From a virus (Duplodnaviria; Caudoviricetes), in the IMG/VR virus record IMGVR_UViG_3300020037_009644, positions 64,001 to 128,000 of that record: a stretch of DNA of 64,000 bases; one strand, given 5' to 3'. Positions within the stretch are counted from its first letter, which is position 1, and each line of letters begins with the position of its first letter. A program made the translations under genes and the position numbers. This document shows, one piece after another, positions 22,572-64,000 of this stretch. Under the pieces are notes generated by a model. That model was not told the DNA's origin. It searched no databases and saw nothing but the letters and a program-made list of their open reading frames with translations.

Positions 22572-25478
22572 TTAGGACCCAATCAAACCGGCAACTTGGC
22601 TGCTTGATACGGTGATTTGCGGATTGTTCCAACCGGCTTTCTTGAGATAGACGGTTACAATAATCTTCGTTGTCAAGGTAAGGTAAACGTTGTCTTCTTG
22701 CAAGTTGTTTGTATCAAAGGTCAACATTCCCGTATCCTGATCAACCAGAACTCCAATACTCATTAACTGAGGGGTTACTTCTAGATCAAGCCCGGCGTAA
22801 ATTGATCCAACGACAGCTGTAAACCTAACTCGACCCAAAGCTAGATCCTCCGGTTGAACAGAAGAGCAATCAGCATATTTCATTGCCGAGTATCCTTTGC
22901 TAGTCAATCCAGATCCTCGATCAGCAACAAAAGCATCGAAAACATTGATTGAAGAGTCAACCAGGGTGGAGGTAGGCATATTGATCTCGACAATTCCGAT
23001 CTCGAAATCTTGTTTCATGACCGCGCCGTCGGGTCGAAGAATCTGTCCGGTTCCGATGATTAAGTTGTCTGGAATGCTAAAATCAGTTCTCCCAGGATCG
23101 ACCGACGGAATTGTCTCATTGAGATTTTCGCATAGGCTCGCGCTTGTCGAAGTACAATCAGACTCGTCGACGGCATTCGAATAGGTAAAGGCTGCGGGGA
23201 CCTGTCTTGTTGCTGAGGAAAGAGCAATAAGCCATGGTTGCCAAAATGGCTGGTGAATTATTTGATAGGTAACATCAGAAAATGGAACTGTTGTAAATAC
23301 CGGATCCAAATTAATGACCGGAGAAACAAGATAACCATCGTAGATAATGTCGGAAGAAGAGAGGTCGTCAAAATTTCCTTCGGTTCCGGTATATCCGTCG
23401 AAGAAATAACCATCTTCTCGACAATAAATGTAATCGTATCGTCCGGTTAACTCCTCGACGGTTAACTGAAGTGTCGTAAAAGAACTTCCTCCAGAAAAGC
23501 TATTGGTTACCTTGTTAATGTAATTGTTAAGCTCATTGAGATCTAGGGCATCAACGTATCCATCACCATTAACATCGGCTCTTAAAATTTCCAGAGCTGT
23601 AAAGTAACCGTCGATTATTTTTTGCTGGGTCGTTGATGAAGAAAGACTTTCTCCAACGAGACCGGCGGCTGCCGCCAGCGAGCTAGCATCAATAACCCCG
23701 ACGCCAAGAACATCTCCCAGCAAATTGGTACATCGAAGAGCCTCAACAATTTTATAGGCTGTTCCGGCGTTGGCTTTGTTGGGAACAAATTTTGAACCAA
23801 GGAGGTTGGTCGATAGAAGATCTGCGTCTGGATTGACGATGGTGAATTTATTATCGACCGCCATTCCTGGATACGATTGAACCTGTTCGATGGTTGTAAA
23901 TTCAGCCGGATTGGTATCTTTGACGCCACCAACAATTAAGGGCTCAGAGACGGATTGAAGAGATTCGAGATCTGATTCTGAGATAAGACTTAAGGTGGGC
24001 TCGAATTGCTGCCTCGTGTAAATCGGATTTCCGTTTCTTTCGTCAGAGGAGACCTGAGACGGAGTGCTCGTAGCTTGAATGATGGCGACGTTAAGAACGT
24101 TTTGACCGGTATCTTCGAAAGAATACCACCCGGATTCGTTGTCGATCGTTGCCCCTGTCTCGTCGTCGATTGTCGTTTTGGATAGAGACATTGGGTTGCC
24201 GGCGTCATAGCCGGCACCATCGGCAATCTTGATAGCATCGGTCCAAATTTGGAACCAAAGATCTTCTTCTTCATTGTCTACCCAAACCGACCCGGAAAAA
24301 AGAGTCTCTCGAGAATTATCGGTTCGGTTATCAGCAACCCCGATATGAATGTCGTTAAGGTTGGCTGCGCCAGAGCGTTTGATCGTTACGGCATAATAAG
24401 ATGAAACAACAATTCCTCCAGAATTTCCAATCGGAGTTCCTGAGAAAACAAAATCAACCGGCTGTAAAACGTCGTTGAGAATGTATCCAGCATCTTTCAA
24501 TGTCGACTGGTTAAAAGAAACCTGAGCAACAGGAGAGATTGAAGGATCAAATTCTATAGCCAGATCTGGGACAATGTCAGATTGGCAGGCGATAGATGTT
24601 TGCAATGGATAAATTGAGACAATTAAATCTCCTGTCCAGTTGAACTTATTTTCCTCTAATGCTCCGGAAATCTCTTCAACACCAAGGAGGAGGGTAACCT
24701 TCTGAAGATTGTCGGTCAGCCCTTGAAATTTTTGACCCACCATCGAAGAAACATCACCAGCGATTAGCTCTTTATCAGTAAGAGAAGATGTTGAGGTGAT
24801 ATTCAGTCCGTCAACAGAGTATTCAGATCCAATTCCAGCCTGAATTATCTGCTCGAGGGTTGAAGAGTCGTCTGGTTTTTTAAAGTCTCTCCAGAAAAGA
24901 TCAGGTTCGAGATCTTGAGAGACCATAATGGCGTCTCGAGAAATTTGGAAAGAAGCAGCCTCTCGAATGATGACTCTACCACCAAGATTGTGAGAACAAT
25001 TATCGTTACCCTTGAAATCGTTGAAAAAGATAGCTAAAATTTCTTTATAGTGTCTTTTGGTTACCTGGCTTTCGTTCTTGAAAAAATAAAAGCGATCGAG
25101 TTGAAGAGAACCGTCGAAAGAAAGACCGATAACGGCTACTTTAACAGAAGATCTTCCTTTGACATCAGATCCTGAGAGAACAATTTCAATTTGGTTGCCA
25201 AGATTGATGTCCGACGGCTGATTTGAAACATGAATTCCTGTCCCATCGAAAATGTTGGCAGCGACGAGGGCAATTTGATCGACTGAAAGATCGTCCGAGT
25301 CAAATAAAATGTTTTGGGTCAGCTGAGAAGGGAGAACACCGCTTCCAAAATGGTTGTTAATGACTGCGGAAAGGCTTTGATCAACGTGGTCCTGTTCGAC
25401 CTCAAGATCTTTTTGGGCAACCCGCTGAGCGTCGTGCCAAATGTTTTCAATAACCGAAGAAGGAAGGCGAATGGTCAT
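22572..25478 (-). CDS. Virion structural (baseplate/fibre-associated) protein with dockerin-like Ca-binding repeat
   Basis: Acidic, beta-rich, last gene of the baseplate module. RADVNGDGYVDALDLNEL. 5 DGY motifs. Confidence 0.7.
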   Translation of the reverse strand: MTIRLPSSVIENIWHDAQRVAQKDLEVEQDHVDQSLSAVINNHFGSGVLPSQLTQNILFDSDDLSVDQIALVAANIFDGTGIHVSNQPSDINLGNQIEIVLSGSDVKGRSSVKVAVIGLSFDGSLQLDRFYFFKNESQVTKRHYKEILAIFFNDFKGNDNCSHNLGGRVIIREAASFQISRDAIMVSQDLEPDLFWRDFKKPDDSSTLEQIIQAGIGSEYSVDGLNITSTSSLTDKELIAGDVSSMVGQKFQGLTDNLQKVTLLLGVEEISGALEENKFNWTGDLIVSIYPLQTSIACQSDIVPDLAIEFDPSISPVAQVSFNQSTLKDAGYILNDVLQPVDFVFSGTPIGNSGGIVVSSYYAVTIKRSGAANLNDIHIGVADNRTDNSRETLFSGSVWVDNEEEDLWFQIWTDAIKIADGAGYDAGNPMSLSKTTIDDETGATIDNESGWYSFEDTGQNVLNVAIIQATSTPSQVSSDERNGNPIYTRQQFEPTLSLISESDLESLQSVSEPLIVGGVKDTNPAEFTTIEQVQSYPGMAVDNKFTIVNPDADLLSTNLLGSKFVPNKANAGTAYKIVEALRCTNLLGDVLGVGVIDASSLAAAAGLVGESLSSSTTQQKIIDGYFTALEILRADVNGDGYVDALDLNELNNYINKVTNSFSGGSSFTTLQLTVEELTGRYDYIYCREDGYFFDGYTGTEGNFDDLSSSDIIYDGYLVSPVINLDPVFTTVPFSDVTYQIIHQPFWQPWLIALSSATRQVPAAFTYSNAVDESDCTSTSASLCENLNETIPSVDPGRTDFSIPDNLIIGTGQILRPDGAVMKQDFEIGIVEINMPTSTLVDSSINVFDAFVADRGSGLTSKGYSAMKYADCSSVQPEDLALGRVRFTAVVGSIYAGLDLEVTPQLMSIGVLVDQDTGMLTFDTNNLQEDNVYLTLTTKIIVTVYLKKAGWNNPQITVSSSQVAGLIGS

Positions 25479-25489
25479 GACATAATACC

Positions 25490-28400
25490 CTAAGAGTAGT
25501 AATTGATTTTTGCTTTAGAAACTGCTGGCTTCAAGATGTCGATCAGTGTTTCCAGGATTTGTTTGACCTGGGCATTTCCGCTAACGTAGCCAAAAGAATC
25601 GATGACGTTCAATGTGAAGTTAAAAATCCCATAAGCTTCATCGTGAAGAATGGCGAAATCTTTCTTTTTGACAATTTCGGTGTCAAAGTTAATGATCTTG
25701 GTTGTATACAAATCTTCGATGGCTGGCAAGACGACGTCGATATTGGAGTTAAAGTTGAGGTCTTTTGATTGACCAGCAACGAGAGCTGGCGACTTTGCTA
25801 TATTGCTGAATTTGACGTTATCGAAAGAGGCATAAGCCGTATGTTTTCCAAGATAATCACCCCCTAAAAAGAGCTGATTGATCGAGTCGGCAAAATTGAT
25901 GTCGGAGGTTAAAGGCGAATCCCCACCACGCTGACCGAAGACCAAGCCTTGACCAAACTTAAAACCTTGTCCGAACTTAATGGTTCCACCCTCTTCTCCA
26001 TCAATGAACATTCTGATTTGGTCTTCGTTGTCTCGATTGTTGAAATCAAAAGTAACCATGATACGATGCCAAGTTTGTCGAGCCCAAGAGACATACTGGC
26101 TAATTTTAAACTCTTGATCATCAACTATAACCGAAAGGCTAATAAAACCATAAGGATCTTTGTAAATTGAAAAGCGATTTCCGGAAACACCTGTCGGAAT
26201 ATAAGAAATTACGACCGGAGTATTTTGATACGGCAAGGATTGCTTAAGCTGAACCGTTCTTGAATCCGAACGAATCGTTGCGTCTCCGGAAATATCTTTG
26301 TCCGAGTTGGCAACTTTGATGCTGACTATTTCCGATATTCTTCCTGATGTTTTAATTGTATTTCTGGTCAAAGAAACAGTTTCTTCTACCGTTGCTCCAT
26401 AAGCATCGAAATAATAACGAAGAGTCGGATCATTGGGAACGTCGTACCGCGGGGAGATCCAAAATTCAATTGTCCCAGAATGATTTAAAGGCAAAATTCC
26501 AGCATTGTCGATAACATAAGGTTTTTCGGTAATTAACAAAGCCTTTTCGAAATTGGAGTTGACCGAAGCTGAGGTCTGAATAAAATCTCGGTCTCCGGAA
26601 ATCCATAGATCGGCATCATTTTCAAGAGGAAGAGAATCAAAGTGAAGAAGAACAAGAGTATTTTTGTTCTTCTTGAAAGGAGATATCCTGATTGAATCCT
26701 CGGTAAAACTCATGCCGTCAATGGAAGCTGGCTCTCCGATGCGAACATCTGTCATTTTTTTATTAAGAATTCTTAGCTCGTCAAGAATACCTTTAACCTG
26801 TTTATCTCCGTTCCTCGATGATCCTATAAAAATCTTTTCGTTTTCAAATGGATCAAATGGGAGAGAGAGGTAAGAGGAATAGTCAAACTCATAAAAAGCT
26901 TCTGGAAGAAGATACGGAACAGCAATCTCTCCGGCAGTTTCCAAGGTAAAAAATCCATTGACAAAACCAGCGTTACCAAGGCTGGTGTGATAGAGCTTAT
27001 ATATCCCAGAAGAAAAATCAGGCGGGGTCGGAGATGATACTCTGACGGTGTGCTCGTCGATTCTTTCGACAATTGAATAGGTTCCGACGGCTGGTCCTGG
27101 AGAAGAAATGACGATGTATTGATTGAGATCAGAGTCGACAAAAGATCCGCTCGAATCTGTTAAAAGATCTCCGACGCCACTCAACGTTCCATATCCTGAA
27201 GATACCTGGGTAGAATATCTCAAAATTGGATAATCATTATTACCTTCGCTGTACATCAAAGAGTAAGCTTCTTTGATTTCAACAGAGGTAGCATTGGCTG
27301 TCGAATAATAAGGAGTGACAATAACGTCGACGTCTGAGATTGAAGAAAATTTGTTAACCGTATTCTTGATCCCAGCAGAAGAAAACAAAAGCGTCTCTGT
27401 CGTGCTTCCGTTAATTGTAACAGAAACAGGGGTTGTAAAATCGGTATTTGACGATGTAACTCGAACTGATAGAGTTCTTCCTTGAGTTCCGTTGCTTGGC
27501 TGATAAGTTGTCAGATTATTAGCCGTAAAGACTCCTGATCCGAATGTTGCATTGTCCGGTCCGATTGGAACGAGAGGAAGGAGGACAGAATAAATGTTGA
27601 CCTCGGAGAGATTGATCGGGGCGGGAAGTTGTGTTTTAATTATGCTAGACGAGCTGCCGTAAACAAACTGTCTTTCACGAATTCGACGATGATTTAATCC
27701 GAGGGTTCGAACCAAAATTGTATCGCCAACCAGAGCATCTCCGAGAATTGTCAAAACATCTTGATTAAGAGCATTTTTGTCGATGCTATAATCTGGGAGA
27801 TCTGCGCGAAGTCCAGCAAGTTCGGTCTCAACTCCATCACGGAGAACAGAGACAACGATGTTTTTGTAAAATGCTAATTGGCTAGAAACGACTACGCTGT
27901 AAGCGTTGACGGTAAACTTAGCGTTGTCGAATGAAAGAGGAATGATTGAGCTTAAGGTTAGTTGATTTCCGGAGACAGAACTGATTGTATAGCTGCCCAA
28001 ACCAAGCTCGGGAAATTCTACAAGATCTCCTCCAACAATTCCGCCGGTGGTGAAATTAACCGAGTCTGAATAAATGATGCTGGACCCAGCCGCAAGATGC
28101 ATGTCGGCTCCATTGATGACATTCTTGGGAACCGTTCCAACGACATATTCCGGTTTGATTGTTCTAAAACGATCAGAAGACGAAGAGATTGGTCGTCCGC
28201 CATATTTCAGAATGTTGGGGACCTCGAACCCGTCAACGAAGAGATGCATTTCGTCACGCAGATCTGAGGAAGAGAGCTTCCAAGAAATTCCGATATGATG
28301 CTTTTCTCCAGCTAACCAATCAGAGACGTCTTTGCTAATTTGACGAAGAGCTCCTTGGTTATCATAAATTGAGAAACAAAGATACCCAGAGCCATCTTTG

Positions 28401-31400
28401 AAAAGAGAAATTCTGTTTTTGTTGTTTTCTTTTCCAAAGTCAAAAATGTAGTGAAGATCATCGGCAAGAAATGAGAAACCGTCAAAAGAATATCCAGGAG
28501 AATATCCATCGAGCGGGTGGTACCCATCAATCGCTAGATAATCTGTATATCCATCCGGGGCAATTCCATCGTAGCCATCGATGTTGAGAATAAAATCAAT
28601 AGAAGATGTTCCTGATCGAAGAACGTCGAGCATCTCATTGAGACCTGGGATATATTTGACGTTGTAAACGTCTCCAGAAGAAGAAACTTTGCCAGAATAA
28701 ACGTGACCATTTAAAGAGTCGACTTCATCTTTGACATACAATTTCCAGCTATTAACGTCGACGTCGTAATAAATGAAGACGCCATAAAGAGCGGTGTAAA
28801 TTGCCGAAGGGACGCCGGAGGAAAGATCTTTTGTCAAATCGAAAGTGTTATTTATTGAATACTCTGGATTGGTTGACTCCGCTCCAATAAAGATATTAGA
28901 AGATGGGATTGTGCTTCCATCTCGCAAAAGATTTGAGAAAGTTAATGTTGCGTCGTTATCTAAGCCATTCCAATCTGGGATAATCCACGTTTCCAGGGAT
29001 CCCTCTTCGAGACGAAGATTAGAGGAAGCTGCAAGAGAGACGGTTTGATTTGATTCAGAAATATTAAGCCCGGAATTATATTTTCCAGATTGAAGTATAA
29101 GATCTCTGGTGGTCTCGATGGGATTGAAGCTGAGGTAGCTATAATTAAGTACCCAATGTTCAAAAATTGCCTCGATAAGCTCGGGCTCGATGTGAGTGAT
29201 ATTCTTGACCAAATTTTTTATCGAAGGAATTGTCGGTCCTTTGGTAAAACTCTGCAAAGCTCCCATCAGGGCGTCGCGATATCTTTCACGGGGAAGTTGG
29301 GGGTCAAAGTTATTGAGAATTGGGATATTGACAAGAGAGCCAAAGTTTCTCAACAAGCCGTCTCGAAGAGCGCCTATTTTATAGGAAACATAGTAATCCG
29401 TCCCTATGTCCAAAGAACGAAGAGCTTGATTAAATTGAATACAGTTGTCTCCAAATTCGTAGGAGATTAAAATTTGGTCAGTAACATAGGAGTAATCAAT
29501 CAGAAGGTCACCCTTGCTATAATCGACGACGGGTGTTCCAGCACCCGTCATTTGAAATGAATAATGAACGATGACCGAATCCCCGGGAGCAGGAGAGCCA
29601 GTCAGCCCAGATAAAGTAATTGTATAGCCAGAATATGAACCGTAACCATCCCAAAGCTCAACGTTGTCTGAGGTTCTGACAACGGAAGAAACTCCCGCAA
29701 GCTCAATGCCGTCACCGAGGTCTGTCAATTCGATATTCAATGGGCTCAAGATTATCTCTTGACTTTCCAAATTGATTGGAGACAAAGAGATGACGTTGGC
29801 AGAAAATGTTGCATTTTCTCCGAAGTCAAGAGGGGAGGTTGAGTTTGTTAAATTGAAGTGATCGAAGACTCCATGAATAGAAAAGACATCAGAGGTTACC
29901 GAAATTGTTTGATTGTCAACAATGTATGGAAGAGATGTATCTCCATTAAGAAATCTTTCATCCGATCTATTAAAGACGGATTGAGTCACCTCCTCATTGG
30001 TAAACTCTGAATATTCAATCGGAATAATGGTCGATGAATTGAGAGAATAATAAAGCTGATTAACTCCATAGATTTGGGAAAAGTTGGTAGTTATCGTTCC
30101 TTTTTTGTAACTGATCGACCCGAGATCGTAATCGGCATCGTTGCTGATGGCAACGTAAATTATTCCATCTGAATAATTAATCAAATATTGCCCAATTGAG
30201 GCGAGGCGATTGATATTTTGGTCTTCGGTTTCGGTTTGTCCGTCAAAGTATATCTCGGTCTCAAAAATATCGGTGTTCGAAAAATAACACGAGCTATTAA
30301 AAGAAGAGCCGATTGATTCTTCGGTTGATCCTTGAATGTAAGAGTTATTGAGAAAAGCTTTGAATACCCTAATCGAACTGGCATTAACAACCTCTTCGGT
30401 CACCAAAATTGTTTCGTTGGTCACCTGGGAATATGAAGCCCTCTCTTGCAGTTGGGTCGTTACTGTCGGGGGATTGTTGCCGGTAAAAAAGACCTTGTTC
30501 CCGCGCCAACCATCAATGCGATAAATTTCTCCGGATGTTTCGTTGTAAATTCTGAAGACGTCGGTAACCGGACCGTTGGAAACTTGAAGCGAATTGGTTG
30601 AAGAAATTTTATTCCCAACACGTTCGTTAAGAACCTCGGTGTGAATTTGAGGAACGTAATCGACTCCAGAGACGAGGACTCTTTCATAATCAAAGGTAAT
30701 CGAAGCCTCTTCTCCTTCGAGATCACGCAAGGGAGATCGAACGAGTTCTTGAGAGCTTGAATCGTAGGTGTAATCTAGATTTTCGGAAAAATATTTACGA
30801 TAGAAATAACTCGCTGCCGGAGGGAAGTTACCGGTGCCATTGTTTTGTGTTTCGCCGTAGACAAAAACCGTCCCGGTCGAATAGTCAATTGAGAATTCTC
30901 CAGGAAAAGAAGGAAGACCATCAATTCTAAAAGCAATTTCTTTTACAAAAGCTGGGTGGGCTTCAGAAAATGGTGGATCGGCTAGCGGGTCTAGAAAAGA
31001 GACACCATCGGAAGAAACTTCGACATCATTTTGATCGACAACTGGATAGTGTCGAAGAGAAAATTTGGTTAAAATTGGAGGTGTTACTTCGCGGATGATC
31101 TCAAGAACCTGAGACACTTCGACAGAATCTGGATCGATTAGTTTGCCAAGGTTTTTATATTCGTAGTCGATGTAGATGAGGTCTCCAGGTCGTGGGATTG
31201 CAAAATCTGAATCTTCAAGGACCGCGCCGGAGAGACGAATTTGATTCAGCTCCAGCGTCTGATAAACAGAGGCTAGATCTGGATCGTATCGATCTGTTTT
31301 TAACTGATAGCCGTATTGAGCTGGGTCATAGTTAAAAGAGTTTCCATTACCATAAACGATTAAAATTCTAGAAACTTTGATAACCTGAGAATATTTAACG

Positions 31401-32131: not shown

Positions 32132-32162
32132 AATTAGATGCGATCTTTAGGAGAGAATTTAA

Positions 32163-39723: not shown

Positions 39724-40583
39724 TATCCATTTTCTTTCTTAGGTCTTCTATTTCCTTCTATAACATTTTGCTTAGCATCTAGTGGTCGTAAGTTTGATAG
39801 AGCCCAACATTTTTTGAAATCATCACACTCCATAGAAGTGATATTAAAATGTGACACAGGAATAATATGATCAATCTGCCAAGTTGGTTTTTCAGCATGA
39901 TGAGACTTGCTATATCTTCCCCAATTTTTCCAAGTCATCCATAGTTCAAATTGTGATTCAAGATGTTCTTTTAATTCTTCAATTGAATAATCCACATATT
40001 TAGTAAAAGATTTACCGCCTTTTTTAATTTCGTGTCTAATTAAAACTCCAACATCATGACGAAGTTTAAAAATAGGATCATTTTCTCTTTTATTCTTTAA
40101 TCTAACACGTTGTTTTTCAAGATTTTCAGGTTTACTTCTATATTTTTTATTTCTAGCTAATATTTCTTCTTTATTACCTTCGTATCTTTTTTTATCGTAG
40201 GCTTTAAATCTTTCAGGATCTTTTTTTCTATTATCTCTTTTAGATTTTTGAAAACAAATTTTGCAATGTGGAAGTAATCGAGATTTATTTCCACTACCAA
40301 ATTCGCAAAGTAGTTTGACATCTCCACATGTCTTACATTTTTTCTTACCATCAAACTCTTGACCTGTACACAATTTACATTTGTTCTTATATATTTTCAA
40401 TTGGCTGTTAAGAAATGCAAAATTTGAAATTTCTTTTTCAAATTTGCAGCCTTTACAAATTTTCTTTCCGGTGAATGAATCTTTATCAATGCATTCAATA
40501 CACTTTCTATATCTCTCGTGAAAACAAGAAATATTTTTCTTTTTAGAACACTCGGTGCATTTTTTTAAACTCTTATCTTTCAT
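39723..40583 (-). CDS. HNH (endonuclease VII-like) homing endonuclease with N-terminal CxxC repeats
   Basis: Three KxCxxC...F...CxxC units. LKEHLESQF...MTWKNWG...WQIDHIIP...NLRPL...N. Markedly AT-rich. Confidence 0.88.
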   Translation of the reverse strand: MKDKSLKKCTECSKKKNISCFHERYRKCIECIDKDSFTGKKICKGCKFEKEISNFAFLNSQLKIYKNKCKLCTGQEFDGKKKCKTCGDVKLLCEFGSGNKSRLLPHCKICFQKSKRDNRKKDPERFKAYDKKRYEGNKEEILARNKKYRSKPENLEKQRVRLKNKRENDPIFKLRHDVGVLIRHEIKKGGKSFTKYVDYSIEELKEHLESQFELWMTWKNWGRYSKSHHAEKPTWQIDHIIPVSHFNITSMECDDFKKCWALSNLRPLDAKQNVIEGNRRPKKENG

Positions 40584-52030: not shown

Positions 52031-52068
52031 AAAATAAAAGGGAGAATGATGAAAATCATCTTTCTCCC
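52031..52068 (-). terminator. Intrinsic terminator after the tail tube gene
   Basis: Minus strand GGGAGAAAGATGAT-TTTC-ATCATTCTCCC followed by TTTTATTTT. Confidence 0.75.
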
Positions 52069-52105
52069 CATCAATATATCAGAGTTTTAGCTTAATTAGC
52101 TGATA

Positions 52106-52732: not shown

Positions 52733-52755
52733 GTTTAGCTAATGATTCCTATGGA

Positions 52756-55209: not shown

Positions 55210-55280
55210 TTTCAGTGATCCTTAAATGATTTTTGAAAGGTTTTATGTGCCAACATTCTATGGAGATATTGGATTATGCG

Positions 55281-56072
55281 TTATAGATTGTTTAAAACAT
55301 CCAAAAGATCAATATTTTCTTCGACGGTTAATCCCGCTGCCGGAGTAAATGGATCTTTATAGGTATCTCCGAATTCTAGGCAAAATTTGAAAATCTCAAC
55401 GACGTTATCAATGGGAATTTGACGAACCCATTCGGTTCTTATTTCCAAAGAAATTGTTTGTTTGAAAAGCTTGTCATTTCGAGAATCTCCGTCGGTAGCT
55501 CCGCCGGCAGAGATATTTTTAACAACTATTCCTTGATTGACCAAGATTTCAAAAGCGGTATCTTTAAAAAAGAGCATGATAAGATCGACGAGATCATTGC
55601 GAGATCCCGAGTTTTCTGATTGAACTTCTATGGTAAAAGTTCCTTCCCAAGCTCCAGACTGTTCAAAACATTGAGGGCGAGAAACTATAGCCGAGTTTCC
55701 GTAACCATCAACGTATTCGATCGACATATATCTAACGAATTCTTTGTTTCTAGACATCGAGACCGGTGAATCTCGCATTCCGGAATTACGAACCAAAATG
55801 GCTGGAAAATGCTGGGCGTCTTGGCGATAATACTCTCCGATATACAATCGAGATTGAGAGCTGTCATTAACTCCGGCATCTAACGGAAGATTGGTATTGT
55901 TGGAAATTTTCGAGAATCCGTAGGAATCATTTTGGTAATGATAGTAGTGATCTTGGGAAAAGAACTCCTTCAATGCCCAGATAAGGGTATCGATAACATA
56001 TCCGATACCTGAGTTTTGGGTGTACCCATGAAGAGAGTATAGATCAGTTTTCCAAAGATTACCGGTTGCCAT
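55281..56072 (-). CDS. Tail completion/terminator protein
   Basis: Immediately upstream of the sheath. FPAILVR, GTFTIEV...RNDLVD, ISLEIRTEW. Confidence 0.72.
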   Translation of the reverse strand: MATGNLWKTDLYSLHGYTQNSGIGYVIDTLIWALKEFFSQDHYYHYQNDSYGFSKISNNTNLPLDAGVNDSSQSRLYIGEYYRQDAQHFPAILVRNSGMRDSPVSMSRNKEFVRYMSIEYVDGYGNSAIVSRPQCFEQSGAWEGTFTIEVQSENSGSRNDLVDLIMLFFKDTAFEILVNQGIVVKNISAGGATDGDSRNDKLFKQTISLEIRTEWVRQIPIDNVVEIFKFCLEFGDTYKDPFTPAAGLTVEENIDLLDVLNNL

Positions 56073-56073
56073 A

Positions 56074-59000
56074 TTAGTATACGAAACTTATTGTGATATC
56101 TTTAACTTTAAGCGTACAACCAGATGAATGATTTTGTTGAAATGTTACTATTAGATATGGACAGGTGGTAGCTGCACCAAAACCATAACGCACAACGCTT
56201 TGCGCAGTAACCGTTAATGCCAATGTAGTATCTACACCAGCATTCGCCCAAGCTACGTTGTTAGTATCTGTATTATTGGTTCGTAATGATAATTCAATAA
56301 AATTTGTTCCAGCAATAGTCGAAGCATTATATGTTAATTGACAAGCAGTTATTGTAACTCCTTCAGGTAAAACTCCAAGTAAAGGAATTAGTAAATTACC
56401 ACCATTAGCAGTATTTAAATCTAAATAATTAAATATAAAGCTTGAAGGAAGAGGATCACCTAAATTAGTATCTTGACTAATAACTGTGAGATCGCCAGCG
56501 AGATTACCAGCAAGAACTGCATAGGACCCGTCGCTCAAATTTATAGTAAAATTGCCACAATTTATTGGAACAACATAACTAAATGTTTGATTCTTATTTC
56601 TAGTAACAACGAATGTATTAGAAGCATTGGGAGCTACATCTAGAGAAGACCCATCGATTGTCGTCGAATCAAAGAAATTATCTGTACAAATACCAGTAGC
56701 TTTTGTTCCTCCTGAAGGCATTCTTATAAATGCACTTATGGCGGCAGCTGATCGGTATATTTGATTTTGACAGATAGTATAATTTCTGATAGCGCTGCCG
56801 GTTCCAGCAGATGCTCTGATACCTGTTCCGGATGTTTTCAACCCTCTGACAATGTTTCCGGTAATAATCCCTGATGATTGAACATCAACTCCGGTATCGT
56901 ACCCATAAACTAAACTATTGTATCTTCCAAAGTTAGTATGGTTGTTAACCACCGTAGCTTCAGATTTAACGCCGCTAGATGAATGAGCAACAAAAATAGC
57001 ATAGTTTGGTGGATTGGGAGTAAATAGGCTTAGATAAGAACTATCATATCCATCAAGATGATTTCCATCAATAAGAAGAGAAGAATAGCCATCTGTAATA
57101 TCTAAAGTTTGAACCGAAATCCAGTGAGCGTAATTATTTTTGATCGAAACGCGTCCAAAGCCATATTCTGACTGATCAATGTTAAGTTGAAGATTGCCTG
57201 TTCCAAAAAAGTTTCCAATTATGAAGCAAGTATTGTTTTCAATCGTTAGCCCAGATGTAACGTTGTGTTTCAAAAATTCGGTAGAAGCATTGGTATCACC
57301 TGATATTACGTATCCGATACTGCCACAAATATTTTTAGAAATAGAAGAGTTGACAACATTCATCCCCGGAGACTCAACATCTGTTGTTCCAAGTTCGGTA
57401 GTCATGTAAAAACCCTGTTGATGAGAACAGAAGTTATTTTCAATTCGGACGTTTAAAAGACAGCTGGGGTTAGGAGAGAACCCAACTCCTAAATGATAAA
57501 ATGCAGCCGCAGCTTGGTTTTTACCAACTTCCGAAATTGGCTCATCAATAAACGAACAGTTGGTGACACCGACATTTTTAATCGTTTGACCGGTAATCAA
57601 TTCAAAAAGAATAAATGGAGGTCTTTGGCTAGTATTTCTAGAGGTAAAAGTACATCGATTAACAAAGGTATTTTCACAATCAACGTTGGTTGAGTAGAGA
57701 CAAGCGTTACCAACGTTGAGAAGATCCGCGGGGCTAGAGAAAGAAAGACCGGTTGGATTGTAATTAAAGGTACAATCTTCGAAGAGAACGTTGCTGTCAA
57801 TTTCAAAAGACTTGGCGGCGGTGCAGTTGAAAACTCCGTTCAGTCCTCGAATGATGATTTTTTTGTTAATGTTGACCAGCGGGATGGTGGTCGAGATATC
57901 AAAAGCCCCCTTAACCTGAATCTCATTTTGATATCCGTCTGAAAAATTGATCCAATTGGTCAGAGAGGTAAAATCATAGAAGTTTCCGACAATGTTATTG
58001 TCGGAGACCCAAGTCAAAACGTTGTTGCTTGATTGTTTATGAACGAATCGGCGAACGTCGGTTACCAGATCAACGGTCAACGAAGCAACGGTGACCGCCA
58101 TAATTGCCAGAGGTGTTAAATCTTTACGAGACTGAAGTAGTTCGAAGAAGGTGACCGAGGGAAGATAGTAATTTCCTGAGCCTGGAGTGACGAAGTATTG
58201 CTGTTTGGTTGTTGTTAGAATAAGAGGAGTTAGTTCTCCTGATTCGTTAATGCAAATGACATAGGTCATCGGTTGAGGAAGAGATGTGCCAGCTGTATAA
58301 ATTTGAGGAATTGTTACAGAGGAATTGTTAGCAATGACAATTTTGCCATTAACCAATGCTATTCCGCCGTCAAAATAAACCTCTCCAGAATCAGCAACGG
58401 CTGAGACCGAGCTAACCCCCAAGCCTCGAAGGACTCCGTTCTCATGAAGAAGAGCGTCTCCGGATGTAATAAAGTCAATTGCTGATTGGGTAAAATCAAC
58501 CTCGTCGACAGAACCGAATTGACGGGCATCGTTGGTTTTTTGAATGATTGGGTATGTTGAAACCGGGTCCCAGTTGACCTCACAAGTTGCCAGAAGAAGA
58601 TATTGATCGTTCAGCTGCAATGATGGATAAAGATCAATATCGACATATCTAACATTGACATTGCTAAGAACATCCGTACCTGGGGAGGCTGAAATTTCTT
58701 GAAATGTTAAATCTATATAATCAGAATATGTCTCGTCGAAAAATCGGGTCGGAACGTTTTTTCTTCCTCGAGTTACTGGACCGGGATTACTTATTCCAGG
58801 ACCACCTGAAATTGGAACTCCCAAATATCCGTCGTACTCTCCGGTTGTCGAATTATATTCGGTAACATAAAAACGAATTCGCTTCTGAAAATCGGAGGAG
58901 ATTCCTGATAAATAACCACGAAGTTTGGGACTAACCGAAGAGATATGCCAGTTGGTCGTTGCCAACAATGTTGCCGACTCTGTTTGTCGAGGAAGACGAG

Positions 59001-61284
59001 CTCGTTCGTGAGAGAATGTTTTTCCCTGATCGGTTACGTAGATTTCGTGCCATCTTTGGTAATCATTTGACGTGGGAAGAGTATCTACCAGATTTTCGTT
59101 ATTGAAAGAAACCGAGTCATACCCGAAGTAAATCTTGACAGGAAGCGATGGAACTGCGGAAGTTGCGACGGGAGCTAACCCGCTGTGAATCGAGTTAAGA
59201 ACAGTTATGACCGTCGATCCGCCCGAAGTGTCGCAAGAAGAAACATAAGCAACGTTTTTGATAATGAAGCGACCGTAATCAACCTTATTATAACTAGGGT
59301 CCGAAGAAACTATCGTCGGCTGAATTACCAGAGTTTTCCCAGGAGACATTCCAGCCGGAGCTAAATTGTGGAGAACTGTATAACTGGTTTCGACGGTCGA
59401 AACTCCAATAACTGTTCTCGAAGAAACGTAACCATCCCAATAGCCGTCCCCGATCGCCAGGTAGGTGTCGGCGAATGTATCTAACTTCCTACCGTTGACG
59501 TGGTAGTATCTTTGCTTAAGGGGAACGAGAACCTTGGTAGGAAATTGAGCCGCGACGGAATCGGTCCAAGAGGCAAGATATTCCGGAGATGCTGAATTTG
59601 ATCCGGTTGATCCCAACCCAAGAGCGTCGTAAGAATCAGGAGTACCAGATCCCCCGCCAATAACGTTGTTTGGTGTGCTCGAGGTATCTAGAGTTCCGCT
59701 AGAATTATCACCTGAAATAATCGAAAACCCGGCATTTCCAATACAGTCGGCAAGCATGATTCCGAAGTTGCCATTCTTGGCAAATGACAGAAACCTCATG
59801 CTGTAACCGTAGGCATGGAGTGAATTATTGGTCTCGAGGACGACCGACTCGAGAGTATAATTTCCTGGAGTCGCTCCGCTATTTCCGGTTACATCTATCG
59901 CATTCAAAACAATAGTTTGATCCGCGGGATTTCCATTAGGATAGAGGGCTAGATACAAAAGATAATGGCTGGAATTTAACTGTCCTGGATCGAAACCAAT
60001 TCCCAAAGCCGAAGCTCCTCGTGGATGAGCAACAAGCATGGAGCTGAGAACGTTGGTCGAGACCGGGATTCCAGCTCGATAAGCGTTTACAGGAGCGGTG
60101 GCAAGAATTCCAAAGGTTTCTTTGTCGGCAGAGGGTCGATTGATTTGAGCAATGGCGTCGGTTGCATCGCAAAGATTGACCCCGTTGATCCTGACAATCC
60201 ATTCGGTGTTTGGAATGAATCTTATTTCATCAACGAGGTAGTCTGCTTGGGTTCCGTTGCCGTAATTGATGGTAATCTGATCGCCAATTTGAACCTGAGA
60301 AAATTGGGCGTCAAAAATATACCCAGTATTATCATTTGGAAAAAAACGAACAAGATCATCACCAACCGAGAGGTCGTCGACGAATCCGGTATTTGGAGAG
60401 TGGGTTAAAAATGTTTGACATCGTGTGGTCGAAACGACGTTGCTTCCGTGGGCTGCGTAGCCGTCCAACGCTCCAATATAGCTCGATCTCGCAATTGGGG
60501 CGACGGCGTTGGCATGCTGGGTCGCTCGATGCTGACCAAGATTGTAGGTCTCGGCATCGTCAAGATAATCCAAAGCTTTTTGAACGTCGGTCGCCGTTAA
60601 TGGAATTTCAACAAAATTGTCGGTATTAACGACAATTGCCGAAGCGTTGTGTGCCCCGCTCGTTGAGTTTTCGTGATCAACCAGATCGTCATTAATTTCT
60701 AAAAGAGCATCTGCGACCGTGTCGGCTGAACGATCATTGCCATCTTTGTCAAGGAGACCTGTCCAGGTATAGCTAGGATCTCTTGTATCCGAAGGCATTG
60801 CGTTAATATCAATTTGAGAAGCTACGTGTCTTGCCTTCGTGCTGGAGTCTGAAAGAAATTCGCTTCCTGTAATATGAAGAATGAGATCGGAAAAAATTTG
60901 ATTGGCAAAGGTGACCAAAGAAGCGATGAGGGCAGAATTATTGAGAACTCCGGTATGAAGATCGGAGGTGGAATAATCGAGATCAAGCTTACTCTCTTCA
61001 ATTCCTGCGTTGCTGGCAACCTGAGAGTTAACAATGGGAAGAGTCGCCAGCCCAACCGAGGTTAATTCGCTTGCCCTGATGTGACCATTCTCGTTAAATG
61101 AGACGGAGAGGAAAGAGGCTAGATCCGAAAGGTTGCCGGAAAATTCACGACCCAAAGATCTTTCAACAGCGAAGACTGCGTCTCTTAGCTGATTGATAGC
61201 CGTACCACCAATCTCGGTTACGTTATCATCAACTCGAAAAATTGTGGTGTCGTCGTCGTAATTAAAAGGAAACGGTGAGCTCAT
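56074..61284 (-). CDS. Large fibre/appendage protein with C-terminal parallel beta-helix (tailspike/depolymerase-like)
   Basis: N-terminal FP...DD...INQLRDAVFAVERSLG attachment-type motif. Repeated IxNN/IxGN beta-helix rungs. 7 DGY motifs. Confidence 0.75.
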   Translation of the reverse strand: MSSPFPFNYDDDTTIFRVDDNVTEIGGTAINQLRDAVFAVERSLGREFSGNLSDLASFLSVSFNENGHIRASELTSVGLATLPIVNSQVASNAGIEESKLDLDYSTSDLHTGVLNNSALIASLVTFANQIFSDLILHITGSEFLSDSSTKARHVASQIDINAMPSDTRDPSYTWTGLLDKDGNDRSADTVADALLEINDDLVDHENSTSGAHNASAIVVNTDNFVEIPLTATDVQKALDYLDDAETYNLGQHRATQHANAVAPIARSSYIGALDGYAAHGSNVVSTTRCQTFLTHSPNTGFVDDLSVGDDLVRFFPNDNTGYIFDAQFSQVQIGDQITINYGNGTQADYLVDEIRFIPNTEWIVRINGVNLCDATDAIAQINRPSADKETFGILATAPVNAYRAGIPVSTNVLSSMLVAHPRGASALGIGFDPGQLNSSHYLLYLALYPNGNPADQTIVLNAIDVTGNSGATPGNYTLESVVLETNNSLHAYGYSMRFLSFAKNGNFGIMLADCIGNAGFSIISGDNSSGTLDTSSTPNNVIGGGSGTPDSYDALGLGSTGSNSASPEYLASWTDSVAAQFPTKVLVPLKQRYYHVNGRKLDTFADTYLAIGDGYWDGYVSSRTVIGVSTVETSYTVLHNLAPAGMSPGKTLVIQPTIVSSDPSYNKVDYGRFIIKNVAYVSSCDTSGGSTVITVLNSIHSGLAPVATSAVPSLPVKIYFGYDSVSFNNENLVDTLPTSNDYQRWHEIYVTDQGKTFSHERARLPRQTESATLLATTNWHISSVSPKLRGYLSGISSDFQKRIRFYVTEYNSTTGEYDGYLGVPISGGPGISNPGPVTRGRKNVPTRFFDETYSDYIDLTFQEISASPGTDVLSNVNVRYVDIDLYPSLQLNDQYLLLATCEVNWDPVSTYPIIQKTNDARQFGSVDEVDFTQSAIDFITSGDALLHENGVLRGLGVSSVSAVADSGEVYFDGGIALVNGKIVIANNSSVTIPQIYTAGTSLPQPMTYVICINESGELTPLILTTTKQQYFVTPGSGNYYLPSVTFFELLQSRKDLTPLAIMAVTVASLTVDLVTDVRRFVHKQSSNNVLTWVSDNNIVGNFYDFTSLTNWINFSDGYQNEIQVKGAFDISTTIPLVNINKKIIIRGLNGVFNCTAAKSFEIDSNVLFEDCTFNYNPTGLSFSSPADLLNVGNACLYSTNVDCENTFVNRCTFTSRNTSQRPPFILFELITGQTIKNVGVTNCSFIDEPISEVGKNQAAAAFYHLGVGFSPNPSCLLNVRIENNFCSHQQGFYMTTELGTTDVESPGMNVVNSSISKNICGSIGYVISGDTNASTEFLKHNVTSGLTIENNTCFIIGNFFGTGNLQLNIDQSEYGFGRVSIKNNYAHWISVQTLDITDGYSSLLIDGNHLDGYDSSYLSLFTPNPPNYAIFVAHSSSGVKSEATVVNNHTNFGRYNSLVYGYDTGVDVQSSGIITGNIVRGLKTSGTGIRASAGTGSAIRNYTICQNQIYRSAAAISAFIRMPSGGTKATGICTDNFFDSTTIDGSSLDVAPNASNTFVVTRNKNQTFSYVVPINCGNFTINLSDGSYAVLAGNLAGDLTVISQDTNLGDPLPSSFIFNYLDLNTANGGNLLIPLLGVLPEGVTITACQLTYNASTIAGTNFIELSLRTNNTDTNNVAWANAGVDTTLALTVTAQSVVRYGFGAATTCPYLIVTFQQNHSSGCTLKVKDITISFVY

Positions 61285-61343
61285 TTATTTTTGGTTTCGG
61301 AATTAAGAAAAGGATATGATGTTGAGTTTTTATCGCGCATCCT

Positions 61344-61745: not shown

Positions 61746-61799
61746 GGAGATGTCTCTTGTGCCTTGTTGAAGAAAAGAAGATATTTCATAGGTATATGT

Positions 61800-62640: not shown

Positions 62641-62641
62641 G

Positions 62642-62968
62642 TCAGGATCTGGCGTAATCGTCCTTCAGGCGCACGACATCGTCGAGCTCCGGCGTAGAAA
62701 CTTCTATTACCGAAACATCTCCATGTTCAGCAATCATTCGATGAATTGTTCCCGGATCGATATGGCAAACGTCACCTTGTCTCATAAAGAGGACGGCATC
62801 TCCAATTTCTAGGGTCAACAATCCAGATTGAACCATGATTGTTTCTTTTTTGATTTTATGGTACTGCAAAGATAATTTGTGACCATCTTTTATGAACAAA
62901 ATCTTTCCGACGTATTTATCGGTTACAGCCCAAATATTTTCATGACCCCAAGGTTTTTCGACGTGCAT
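62642..62968 (-). CDS. Cupin, mannose-6-phosphate isomerase type II C-terminal-like
   Basis: EKPWG, LSLQYH..KKET, HRM, IEVSTPELDDVVRLKDDY. Confidence 0.88.
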   Translation of the reverse strand: MHVEKPWGHENIWAVTDKYVGKILFIKDGHKLSLQYHKIKKETIMVQSGLLTLEIGDAVLFMRQGDVCHIDPGTIHRMIAEHGDVSVIEVSTPELDDVVRLKDDYARS

Positions 62969-62983
62969 ATTTCCTTTTAGAAT

Positions 62984-64000
62984 TTAAAGAACGAAGGTAT
63001 GTGTGTGACTAAAGCTTTCCAAGGTTGTCGAATCTCCTCTAATTTGATGACTATGAGCCTGGGCAACGATAGCTCCATTGTGACTGGTCGAAGTTAAAAC
63101 TTGTCCTGGGGATATAATCGTTGGACCAACTTGAAATGTATGTGAATGGGGTAGGATAAGACCGGGGACCGAAGAGACCGAGGTGGTAATAATTCTAGGT
63201 TGATCGGAAGTATTAGGGGTGAACAAGAAACGGTAAAAATTATCTGTTTTGCGAACTCTGGTCATAGCAAGTTTTTGAGCTCCCACAACCTGATCAAACA
63301 AAGCGTTGCGAGTTACGTTAAGGACTTCGTAGCGAAAAACTTCTGCATCGGTATATTTATCGTAGGTGATCAACATGTCTCGATCGTTAATCGTTGGTGT
63401 TGAAAGAGTCCAGCCGTTGGGTGCATAGGTCGATTCTAGTCCGGCATCTTGATAAGGAACATCGTCAACAGTTGCATCGAAACGAACCATAATTCTTCCA
63501 TCAGATCTTCGAGGATTGTAATAAGGCTCCCAAGAAAGAACCCTCCCGCCACCTCCGCAGATAGGACATCGTGGATCTGCATATTCTTTGTTTGCTTGAT
63601 AACAGGCGCAATACATTCCTTTCCAAACACGTTTGACAAGCATGCATGGCTGACCGGTTGTTTCGAGGAGAATCTCTTCTCTCTTTAATTGTTCATCGTT
63701 AACGTTGGATCCTCGAATGATTCTTCCAACCCCAGAATATCCATCGGCACAATAATGTTCTCCGCCGAAGTAACTTCCGACGCATTTTCCGGTGATAATG
63801 TCTATTGGACGAAATCTTTTCCAGCCACGATAATCATATGGAGGAATGGTAACCAAAACGGCGTCGGAAGCAGTTTCGGTGGTGTTCAGCATATCATCCG
63901 TTCGGTTGGCATAACCATCTAATTCGGTTACCGGAAAGTTAGGATAGCTAAAATCTGCCGTCTCGGAATGGATTTTGAAGTTTTGTTCTTCGAGTCCTTT
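62984..64000 (-). CDS. Neck/head-completion-like protein with CxC...CxxC zinc motif and HxH repeats (5' end beyond the window)
   Basis: The frame stays open from 63892 to the window edge (KGLEEQ...ELDGYANRTDDM). LLETTGQPCML, CACY...CPICGGGG, PTINDRDMLI, RYEVLNV. Confidence 0.72.
   Translation of the reverse strand, partial: KGLEEQNFKIHSETADFSYPNFPVTELDGYANRTDDMLNTTETASDAVLVTIPPYDYRGWKRFRPIDIITGKCVGSYFGGEHYCADGYSGVGRIIRGSNVNDEQLKREEILLETTGQPCMLVKRVWKGMYCACYQANKEYADPRCPICGGGGRVLSWEPYYNPRRSDGRIMVRFDATVDDVPYQDAGLESTYAPNGWTLSTPTINDRDMLITYDKYTDAEVFRYEVLNVTRNALFDQVVGAQKLAMTRVRKTDNFYRFLFTPNTSDQPRIITTSVSSVPGLILPHSHTFQVGPTIISPGQVLTSTSHNGAIVAQAHSHQIRGDSTTLESFSHTHTFVL

What the first reader, a model, noticed from the sequence alone, without database searches (positions are those of the whole stretch)
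23331..63919. D-G-Y tripeptide strongly enriched in outer virion proteins: candidate modification sequon
Seen directly (manual count): 24 DGY sites. 968-aa protein has 5 (23331-23612), 2213-aa wedge 5 (28502-28579, 29642), spike 1 (41692), sheath 3 (54601-54765, in its insertion region), tail completion 1 (55701), 1736-aa fibre 7 (57046-60465), neck protein 2 (63737, 63911). In the structural region roughly a quarter of D-G dipeptides are followed by Y, against a background Tyr frequency of a few percent. I found none in tube, tape measure, hub, tube initiator, J-like, gp25-like, chaperones, or any non-structural ORF in 1-22.5 kb. Codons vary (GAT/GAC, GGN, TAT/TAC), so selection is on the protein, not a DNA repeat. 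The host proteins are unrelated in fold. Inference: DGY is a shared recognition tag on exposed virion surfaces, most simply a sequon for Tyr-O-glycosylation by the adjacent phage glycosyltransferases. Tyr-O-linked glycans are known on some Gram-positive S-layers. Alternatives are a docking site for a decoration protein, a cross-linking site, or metal-binding turns.
Basis: partly seen in the sequence, partly recalled or inferred. Interest (0 to 1): 0.92.

Follow-up and report, generated by a model that had tools for sequence, protein, structure and literature searches.

The report
DGY tag on huge-phage tail proteins
The outer tail, baseplate, fibre and neck proteins of this uncultured huge phage and all its reachable relatives carry the exact tripeptide Asp-Gly-Tyr about ten times more often than chance; it behaves like a short surface tag that something reads, most plausibly a sugar-attachment site for the phage's own glycosyltransferase, but no modification has been shown.

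Summary
I counted the same 24 DGY sites at the stated coordinates. That is 24 of 90 Asp-Gly dipeptides in the structural ORFs, against 0 of 25 in ORFs at 1-22.5 kb. DGY is the strongest tripeptide outlier (Poisson p about 1e-16; next best 1e-5).

- **Clade-wide:** 556 of 2411 DG near the sheath gene in 80 relatives, and 506 of 1371 in wedge homologues.
- **Virion-only:** in a complete 459-kb relative, 25% of DG are DGY in the virion block and 3.2% elsewhere.
- **Family-specific:** the tube has 0 of 191.
- **Exact:** permutations of DGY, and NGY, EGY and DAY, are not enriched.
- **Recurrent:** about 40% of sporadic DG positions in variable regions are DGY, and tandem (DGY)n loops use varied codons.
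- **Probably exposed:** lost Tyr is replaced by polar residues, rarely Phe.
- **T4 control:** no enrichment.

A GT4-like glycosyltransferase gene follows the DGY-richest protein in 51 of 52 relatives. Because it is near-universal, co-variation could not be tested, and no modification is shown.

Verdict: a real, apparently undescribed surface tag. Tyr glycosylation is the leading reading, at about 0.4. The same tag was noted earlier in this scan in at least 14 other genomes; a claim there that it comes and goes with the transferase was not reproduced.

The parts
22572..25478 (-). 968-aa baseplate-distal protein, the DGY-richest family. Five DGY sites at 23604-23612, 23556-23564, 23406-23414, 23391-23399 and 23331-23339 (aa 623, 639, 689, 694, 714). 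Site 639 lies in a dockerin-type Ca loop.
   Evidence: Homologues carry 423 DGY of 1004 DG.
25490..32131 (-). 2213-aa baseplate/wedge-associated giant protein. DGY at 29642-29650 (aa 828), plus a DGY-rich loop at 28502-28579 (aa 1185, 1193, 1202, 1208). A LamG/ConA-like domain lies at aa 1969-2075.
   Evidence: The loop is a variable-length (DGY)n array in homologues. The family carries 506 DGY of 1371 DG.
40999..43020 (-). 673-aa protein with a single DGY at 41692-41700 (aa 441). It is not conserved in three relatives (0 of 16 DG), so it is probably incidental.
52756..55209 (-). Contractile tail sheath, 817 aa. DGY at 54757-54765 (aa 149, unique to this phage), 54673-54681 (aa 177) and 54601-54609 (aa 201), all in the inserted domain at aa ~95-265.
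   Evidence: Sheath fold. Site 177 is conserved in 98 of 120 homologues and site 201 in 117 of 120; a third site at aa 184 is conserved in 110 of 120 but reads PGF here. Sites 177 and 201 fall in loops, and aa 194-204 have pLDDT below 50.
55281..56072 (-). 263-aa protein next to the sheath gene ('tail completion' is a positional name). DGY at 55701-55709 (aa 122).
   Evidence: Conserved in 59 of 65 homologues.
56074..61284 (-). 1736-aa fibre-like protein with 7 DGY sites (aa 274, 613, 617, 818, 1116, 1398, 1411), at 60457-60465, 59440-59448, 59428-59436, 58825-58833, 57931-57939, 57085-57093 and 57046-57054.
   Evidence: Sites 274, 613, 617 and 818 are conserved, and many sporadic sites occur in relatives; the family carries 170 DGY of 459 DG.
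62984..64000 (-). Neck-like 535-aa protein that runs past the window end. DGY at 63911-63919 and 63737-63745 (aa 225 and 283), plus a DGYDGY pair at aa 182-187 just outside the window.
   Evidence: The family carries 23 DGY of 39 DG in four genomes.
20215..21321 (-). GT4-like, GT-B fold glycosyltransferase of 368 aa with a conserved E-x7-E motif (E259, E267). It is the candidate reader/writer of the tag.
   Evidence: Pfam and PHROG hits. AF2 model with pLDDT 95, closest to chlorovirus B736L, PglA and BshA. It follows the 968-aa gene in 51 of 52 relatives and is present in the most distant subclade.
5792..20146 (-). Variable glycan-synthesis cluster: GT2, GT4, epimerase, GDP-mannose 4,6-dehydratase, DegT aminotransferase, PglD-like acetyltransferase, a CgeB-like GT and unannotated ORFs.
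   Evidence: Only partly conserved in relatives.

Best explanation
DGY is a short linear motif that is under selection on the outward-facing virion proteins of this huge-phage clade. Those proteins are the peripheral baseplate proteins, the fibre-like protein, the outer domain of the sheath, and the neck-like and sheath-adjacent proteins. The motif sits in loops and is read in trans by a conserved factor.

The most likely reader is the clade-conserved cytoplasmic GT4-like glycosyltransferase encoded directly after the DGY-richest protein (window 20215-21321). On this reading it would attach a first sugar to the Tyr hydroxyl. The variable neighbouring transferases and sugar-nucleotide enzymes, here a GDP-N-acetylperosamine route, would then extend it, coating the tail surface with glycans.

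Shown: the motif's statistics, specificity, distribution, turnover and synteny with the enzyme. Inferred: exposure, that the transferase acts on protein, that Tyr is the acceptor, and the purpose of the coat (shielding or adhesion).
For: **Real and exact.**
- DGY observed/expected is about 10 in the window and in pooled relatives. The five permutations of DGY score 0.4-2.2.
- NGY scores 0.75, EGY 0.21, DAY 0.65 and DGW 0.67.
- There is no extended flanking consensus.

**Virion-specific and family-specific.**
- In a complete relative, 71 of 286 DG are DGY in the virion block against 13 of 409 elsewhere, Fisher p 6e-18.
- Rich families: 968-aa 42%, 2213-aa 37%, sheath about 33%, 1736-aa about 35%, neck about 59%.
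- Poor families: tube 0 of 191, 1662-aa 0 of 25, and the transferase itself 0 of 86.

**Turnover typical of a tag.** Among DG positions present in fewer than 20% of homologues, 76 of 191 (wedge), 34 of 81 (968-aa) and 14 of 57 (gp6-like) are DGY. The conserved DG columns of the gp6-like protein have none.

**Tandem loops.** (DGY)2-6 loops use different synonymous codons per unit. Most large proteins carrying (DGY)3 among 2.9 million viral contigs are homologues of this phage's 2213-aa or 1736-aa proteins.

**The Tyr looks exposed and its hydroxyl seems to matter.** At conserved DGY columns only 12 of 74 replacements are Phe and 51% are Asn, Thr, Gln or Ser. At other conserved Tyr columns of the same proteins 341 of 614 replacements are Phe; Fisher p 6e-11. 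The sheath sites lie in loops of the inserted domain.

**A candidate enzyme.**
- The order wedge, 968-aa gene, GT4-like gene holds in 51 of 52 loci. The gene is also found in the most distant subclade.
- The E-x7-E catalytic motif is conserved and the GT-B fold is confident.
- In 5 genomes of the clade (three at least 91% complete) there was no sulfotransferase (PF13469) and no Wzy_C oligosaccharyltransferase. A protein kinase occurs in only 2 of 5.

**Control.** 28 T4 virion proteins have 5 DGY of 67 DG, not significant.

**Precedents.** Three-residue O-glycosylation motifs starting with Asp exist in Bacteroidetes (PMC8550257). Phage-encoded transferases glycosylate mycobacteriophage capsid and tail-tube proteins (as summarised in PMC12619734). 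Tyr-linked glycans exist on S-layers (PMC2943079).
Against: - No chemical evidence of any modification exists.
- The transferase and the motif are both near-universal in every relative reached, so their association carries no co-variation signal.
- One subclade keeps the transferase but has lost every sheath DGY. One relative keeps it with 0 of 7 in the 968-aa homologue.
- One DGY-rich fragment (18% complete) has other genes after the 968-aa gene and no transferase on the contig.
- The transferase's nearest solved relatives act on lipids, small molecules or sugars, not proteins.
- Direct cytoplasmic Tyr glycosylation is rare (my own knowledge), and no Tyr sequon is known.
- The glycan genes could instead serve the collagen-like fibre proteins on the same contig, or could modify host surface polymers.
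- Exposure is inferred, not measured.
Confidence: 0.4

Rival explanations
1. DGY is a docking or interface motif. A conserved virion or assembly protein (a decoration fibre, a chaperone or a neighbouring subunit) would bind the exposed Asp-Gly-Tyr turn, so proteins that carry it are decorated or held together.
For: - The motif is exact, order-specific and confined to virion proteins.
- Sites in the sheath and the 263-aa protein are nearly invariant across 42-64% identity, as expected for contact with a conserved partner.
- The invariant sheath loop at aa 194-204 has low pLDDT in the monomer model.
- Tandem arrays could give multivalent binding.
Against: - No reader protein was identified.
- About 40% of sporadic DG positions in hypervariable regions being DGY is more typical of modification sites than of defined interfaces.
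- A whole subclade lost all sheath sites while keeping the same sheath.
Confidence: 0.22
2. DGY loops bind a ligand directly. They would be Tyr/Asp/Gly-rich, antibody-paratope-like loops that stick to host or environmental polysaccharides, or bind metal ions, increasing adsorption.
For: - The motif sits on fibres, peripheral baseplate proteins and next to a LamG/ConA-like lectin domain.
- Tandem (DGY)n loops exist.
- Dockerin-type DxNxDGY calcium loops occur in the 968-aa family.
- Tyr, Asp and Gly dominate recognition loops in antibodies (my own knowledge).
Against: - Composition-driven stickiness would not demand one residue order, yet YGD, GDY and DYG are at background.
- Host-binding loops should vary between phages, but the sheath and 263-aa sites are nearly invariant.
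- Only 1 of 24 window sites fits a calcium-loop pattern, and calcium binding does not need Tyr.
Confidence: 0.15
3. DGY is a fold-level feature. It would be a favoured beta-turn followed by an aromatic strand start, spread partly by a shared mobile domain, with no reader at all.
For: - Sites precede beta-strands, and beta-formers are mildly enriched at positions -1 and +1.
- The sheath's DGY-bearing insertion domain recurs in neck-like and other proteins.
- Profile comparison gives a weak match between the sheath insert and the 263-aa protein (probability 14%).
Against: - Asn-Gly, the best type I' turn, followed by Tyr is not enriched (observed/expected 0.75). DGF scores 2.2 and DGW 0.67.
- Replacements of the Tyr are polar, not Phe.
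- Beta-rich T4 fibres gp34 and gp37 have 0 of 20.
- The tube, 1662-aa and 691-aa families have none.
- Tandem DGY arrays are not a fold element.
Confidence: 0.1
4. DGY marks another tyrosine chemistry, such as phosphorylation, sulfation, nucleotidylation or oxidative Tyr cross-linking, carried out by a host enzyme or an unrecognised phage enzyme.
For: The hydroxyl-bearing Tyr appears to be required. Many ORFs of the clade have no annotation.
Against: No sulfotransferase (PF13469) was found in five genomes, and a protein kinase occurs in only two and not in the complete 459-kb genome. The tyrosinase search found nothing, but its positive control also failed, so it is uninformative. No such enzyme is syntenic with the DGY-rich genes.
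Confidence: 0.08

Closest known systems
Virion glycosylation of mycobacteriophages by phage-encoded glycosyltransferases (Freeman et al. 2023; read only through its summary in PMC12619734, since the paper itself is not held)
   Same: Phage glycosyltransferase genes lie beside structural genes, and virion surface proteins would be glycosylated in the cytoplasm before or during assembly.
   Different: In those phages glycans sit at the C-termini of the capsid and tail-tube subunits. Here the tube family has no DGY at all (0 of 191 DG). The candidate sites are dispersed internal loops marked by an exact tripeptide with Tyr, and nothing has been shown chemically.
[quoted passage not shown]
   Same: A minimal three-residue motif beginning with Asp marks many unrelated surface proteins for one glycosylation system.
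   Different: That system acts on Ser or Thr of exported proteins outside the cytoplasm. Here the hydroxyl residue is Tyr at position 3, Gly is obligatory at position 2, the proteins assemble in the cytoplasm, and no Wzy_C-type transferase is encoded.
Tyrosine O-glycosylation of Gram-positive S-layer proteins (Paenibacillus alvei SpaA, Thermoanaerobacter; PMC2943079)
   Same: Glycans are linked to the Tyr hydroxyl on a repetitive surface array.
   Different: S-layer glycans are built on a lipid carrier and transferred en bloc by a membrane O-oligosaccharyltransferase. The review reports no sequence motif ('consensus' and 'sequon' do not occur in its text). No Wzy_C homologue is found in the phage genomes.
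DxDxDG / dockerin / EF-hand calcium-binding loops
   Same: An Asp-Gly pair sits in an exposed loop. The 968-aa family does contain dockerin-type loops of the form DVNGDGY[IV]D.
   Different: Only 1 of 24 window sites has the D-x-[DN]-x-D-G frame. Calcium loops do not require Tyr after Gly, so they do not explain the Tyr specificity.

Membership tests
Protein glycosylation sequon (a short motif that marks acceptor sites for a dedicated transferase) | A short exact motif is over-represented on the target class of proteins and at background elsewhere. | tested here: met
   Observed/expected is about 10 in virion proteins. The rest of a complete genome shows 3.2% of DG, equal to background. Permutations are at background.
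Protein glycosylation sequon (a short motif that marks acceptor sites for a dedicated transferase) | Sites are solvent-exposed. | tested here: inconclusive
   Sites fall in loops and low-pLDDT segments of the sheath model. Tyr replacements are polar. Sites arise in variable regions.
Protein glycosylation sequon (a short motif that marks acceptor sites for a dedicated transferase) | A dedicated transferase co-occurs and co-varies with the motif. | tested here: inconclusive
   The GT4-like gene is syntenic in 51 of 52 loci. No lineage without the gene or without the motif was found, so there is no contrast to test.
Protein glycosylation sequon (a short motif that marks acceptor sites for a dedicated transferase) | A glycan is chemically attached at the motif. 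| not testable with these tools
   This needs mass spectrometry of virions or of co-expressed proteins. No cultured relative exists (tblastn against 50,697 phage records found nothing).
Mycobacteriophage-type virion glycosylation | Phage-encoded glycosyltransferases lie next to structural genes. | tested here: met
Mycobacteriophage-type virion glycosylation | The acceptors are the C-termini of the capsid and tail-tube subunits. | tested here: not met
   The tube family has 0 DGY of 191 DG. DGY sites are internal. The capsid gene was not identified on this contig.
S-layer-type Tyr O-glycosylation (en bloc transfer) | A membrane O-oligosaccharyltransferase with a Wzy_C domain. | tested here: not met
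   No PF04932 match in five genomes of the clade, while the positive controls gave matches.
DxDxDG / dockerin calcium loop | Asp or Asn at loop positions 1, 3 and 5, with Gly at position 6. | tested here: not met
   Only site 639 of the 968-aa protein fits.
Type I' beta-hairpin turn preference | Asn-Gly should behave like Asp-Gly, and any aromatic or beta-branched residue should follow. | tested here: not met
   Observed/expected: NGY 0.75, DGW 0.67, DGI 0.77, against DGY 8.6.

The most novel reading that the evidence does not exclude
DGY is the first sequon for tyrosine O-glycosylation, and the first sequon-directed virion glycosylation system in phages. A cytoplasmic GT4-like enzyme, conserved across a large clade of huge phages, would glycosylate the Tyr of exposed Asp-Gly-Tyr turns on assembled or assembling tail proteins. 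Phages would gain and lose sites much as animal viruses remodel glycan shields.
Probability: 0.35. Interest if true: 0.85.

Novelty: new variant of a known kind. Interest (0 to 1): 0.72.

Why it matters
If DGY is a glycosylation tag, it would be a directly testable three-residue code for modifying tyrosine. It would be a new enzyme-sequon pair for glycoengineering. It would also show that huge environmental phages coat their tails with sugars at evolvable sites, with consequences for adsorption, defence evasion and particle stability.

An exact tripeptide is gained repeatedly on the outer proteins of hundreds of uncultured phages and is absent from their inner proteins and non-virion proteins. 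No paper in the searched library mentions a 'DGY motif'. The finding also gives a simple sequence marker for predicting which proteins of these poorly annotated phages face outward.

Tried and rejected
- **Chance or composition:** rejected by the Poisson, Markov, shuffle and cluster-collapsed tests.
- **A DNA repeat:** rejected. Codons vary, and tandem units within large proteins differ at synonymous positions.
- **A general property of myovirus structural proteins:** rejected by the T4 control, 5 of 67.
- **Calcium loops:** 1 of 24 sites.
- **Shared domain ancestry:** hhalign found no significant match between the sheath insert, the 263-aa protein, the fibre-like protein and the tube. The best was probability 14%. 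One mobile sheath-insert domain explains only a few sites.
- **Enriched Cys next to DGY:** not supported (1.7-fold, n=9).
- **Cultured relatives:** tblastn of the sheath against the phage collection, and a single-protein scan of viral contigs, found nothing.
- **(DGY)3 in bacterial genomes:** more than 120 hits, almost all low-complexity stretches in high-GC Actinobacteria. Uninformative about host or function.
- **Hunt for relatives lacking DGY or the transferase:**
  - The relative that looked DGY-poor near the sheath (G001) is strongly enriched genome-wide and has the cluster.
  - G007 has the transferase and 0 of 7 in one family, but 32 of 138 overall.
  - G006 is DGY-rich without the transferase on the contig, but is an 18% fragment.
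  - The most distant sheath subclade lost the sheath sites only.
  - The earlier scan notes' claim that the motif comes and goes with the transferase could therefore not be reproduced here.
- **Complex prediction:** the transferase with the wedge DGY loop gave no verdict.
- **Tyrosinase search:** it found nothing, but its positive control also failed, so it says nothing.
- **Tyr-glycosylation sequon in the literature:** none found in the S-layer review. Two primary papers are not held.

Full report
**Setting.** The window is bases 64,001-128,000 of a 153-kb IMG/VR contig, judged 36% complete, so it belongs to a huge phage of roughly 400 kb. All long ORFs run on the minus strand.
- ORFs at 22.5-64 kb form a contractile-tail module. 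Supported names are sheath (Foldseek against phi812, T4 and others), gp6-like wedge and gp25-like proteins, and tube.
- ORFs at 5.8-21.3 kb are a glycan-synthesis cluster: GT2, several GT4-like genes, a CgeB-like GT, an epimerase, GDP-mannose 4,6-dehydratase, a DegT aminotransferase and a PglD-like acetyltransferase.
- No cultured relative exists in the phage collection.

**The observation.** I translated every ORF and found the same 24 DGY sites at the stated coordinates.
- 24 of 90 DG dipeptides in the structural ORFs are followed by Tyr, which makes up 3.6% of residues. ORFs at 1-22.5 kb have 0 of 25.
- DGY is the strongest of all tripeptides: 24 seen against 2.3 expected, p 1e-16, or 1e-9 under a first-order Markov null. 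The runner-up reaches only 1e-5.
- Merging neighbouring sites leaves 14 clusters, p 1.6e-7, still significant after correcting for 8000 tripeptides.
- 1000 within-protein shuffles never exceeded 9.
- Codon choice at the sites mirrors the genome's.

**Specificity.** All three residues and their order matter.
- In 160 loci of relatives, DGY has observed/expected 10. DYG, GDY, YGD, GYD and YDG score 0.85-1.8.
- Near the sheath genes, NGY scores 0.75, EGY 0.21, DAY 0.65, DGW 0.67, DGF 2.2 and DGH 3.0. Phe and His are one nucleotide change from Tyr.
- Flanks carry no extended consensus.
- This argues against a plain beta-turn preference, because Asn-Gly is the better turn. It also argues against composition-driven sticky loops.

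**Distribution.**
- The enrichment is clade-wide: 556 of 2411 DG around the sheath gene in 80 relatives, 506 of 1371 in wedge homologues and 423 of 1004 in 968-aa homologues.
- In a complete 459-kb relative the virion block has 71 of 286 and the rest of the genome 13 of 409, which equals the Tyr frequency.
- Protein families behave the same way in every genome. The 968-aa, 2213-aa, 1736-aa, neck-like and sheath families are rich, and the 263-aa family keeps its one conserved site. The tube (0 of 191), 1662-aa, 567-aa, 280-aa and 691-aa families are empty.
- T4 virion proteins show no enrichment: 5 of 67 overall, and 0 of 20 in the long fibres.

**Conservation and turnover.**
- Some sites are nearly invariant: sheath 177 and 201, a third sheath site that this phage has lost, site 122 of the 263-aa protein, and four fibre sites.
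- Many others come and go. Of DG positions present in fewer than 20% of homologues, 40% (wedge), 42% (968-aa) and 25% (gp6-like) are DGY. The conserved DG columns of the gp6-like protein have none.
- Loops made of tandem DGY units, up to six, occur at homologous places in wedge, fibre and neck proteins, with different synonymous codons in successive units.
- Among 2.9 million viral contigs, most large proteins with (DGY)3 are homologues of this phage's 2213-aa or 1736-aa proteins.
- When the Tyr is lost it is replaced by Asn, Thr, Gln or Ser, and only in 16% of cases by Phe. Other conserved tyrosines in the same proteins go to Phe in 56% of cases (p 6e-11).
- In the sheath model, sites 177 and 201 lie in loops of the inserted domain, one with low confidence despite invariance; site 149 begins a strand. 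Inserted sheath domains face outward in solved sheaths (my own knowledge).
- Together these features describe an exposed short linear motif under recurrent positive selection.

**What reads it.**
- A 368-aa GT4-like gene directly follows the 968-aa gene in 51 of 52 relatives that have enough downstream DNA.
- It is present in the most distant subclade reached.
- It keeps the E-x7-E motif and folds confidently as a GT-B enzyme. Its closest solved structures are a chlorovirus transferase, PglA and BshA.
- The rest of the glycan cluster varies between genomes. A distant subclade has the gene as a double-GT4 fusion followed by a CgeB-like/GT2 fusion.
- Searches of five genomes found no sulfotransferase and no Wzy_C transferase, and a kinase in only two. 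The tyrosinase search was uninformative because its control failed.
- The transferase is therefore the only clade-wide enzyme positioned to act on the tag.

**Limits.**
- Because both motif and enzyme are universal in every lineage reached, there is no co-variation signal.
- My attempts to find lineages lacking either failed.
- One subclade lost all sheath sites yet keeps the enzyme and the fibre sites.
- Earlier scan notes on other genomes of this clade reached the same reading. Two of them claim the motif disappears with the enzyme, and I could not reproduce that.
- The complex prediction gave no verdict.
- The collagen-like proteins on the same contig are an alternative acceptor for the sugar enzymes.

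**Comparison with known systems.** The closest functional analogies are these:
- the Asp-initiated three-residue O-glycosylation motif of Bacteroidetes (PMC8550257);
- mycobacteriophage virion glycosylation (via PMC12619734);
- Tyr-linked S-layer glycans (PMC2943079).

The case here differs from each in acceptor residue, cellular compartment or transfer route. No paper in the library mentions a DGY motif.

**Verdict.** That DGY is a tag read in trans is well supported (about 0.75).

Noticed in passing
window 4444-6024 (-) and 1741-3213 (-): A TubZ/PhuZ-like tubulin and a UvsW-like helicase lie just past the glycan cluster. Both are conserved at 39-44% identity in three relatives. The tubulin ORF as called overlaps the GT2 ORF (5792-6604) by about 230 nt, so the tubulin's true start is probably further downstream.
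   Followed up: partly
window 8262-14553 (-): GDP-mannose 4,6-dehydratase, a DegT-type aminotransferase and a PglD-like acetyltransferase together look like a GDP-N-acetylperosamine route. Homologues of the dehydratase and aminotransferase at 44-50% identity occur in only one (G001) of the three relatives compared.
   Followed up: partly
window 62642-62968 (-): A 108-aa cupin of the mannose-6-phosphate isomerase type sits between the fibre-like and neck-like genes, so a sugar-metabolism gene lies inside the structural module. It is absent from three relatives.
   Followed up: partly
window 21249-21905 (-): A LigT/2H phosphoesterase with a weak sub-threshold match to the anti-CBASS protein Acb1 lies between the transferase and the 968-aa gene.
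   Followed up: no
window 39723-40583 (-): An endonuclease VII/HNH-like gene is inserted in the baseplate module. It is absent at that place in relative G001, and copies occur elsewhere in other relatives, which suggests a mobile homing element.
   Followed up: partly
window 54470-54820 (sheath aa ~131-248): The sheath's DGY-bearing insertion domain is mobile. Near-identical domains (39-50% identity) occur inside non-sheath proteins of 650-1100 aa and in the neck-like protein of relative G003.
   Followed up: partly
L403-L410 and L433 (relatives): A subclade whose sheaths (40-43% identity) have lost every DGY still carries DGY in its fibre-like proteins and still has the GT4-like gene. In other distant sheaths the same positions read DAY, DSY or DTY, hinting at a looser D-small-Y form of the motif.
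   Followed up: partly
L359:20032-26013 (relative): In a distant subclade the syntenic transferase is a 762-aa fusion of two GT4 modules, followed by a 1228-aa fusion of CgeB-like and GT2 modules.
   Followed up: partly
own contig 144290-152973, outside the window: Two giant proteins (1153 and 1720 aa) rich in collagen-like QGSPGL/GTQ repeats dominate the tripeptide statistics of the contig's right end. They are possible alternative targets of the glycan enzymes.
   Followed up: no
L109, L118, L127 and L113, L114 (unrelated viral contigs): Other phage lineages also have large proteins with (DGY)3. These include a 1556-aa family with 4 of 7 DG as DGY and a 421-aa protein with 9 of 9. The motif may therefore extend beyond this clade.
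   Followed up: partly
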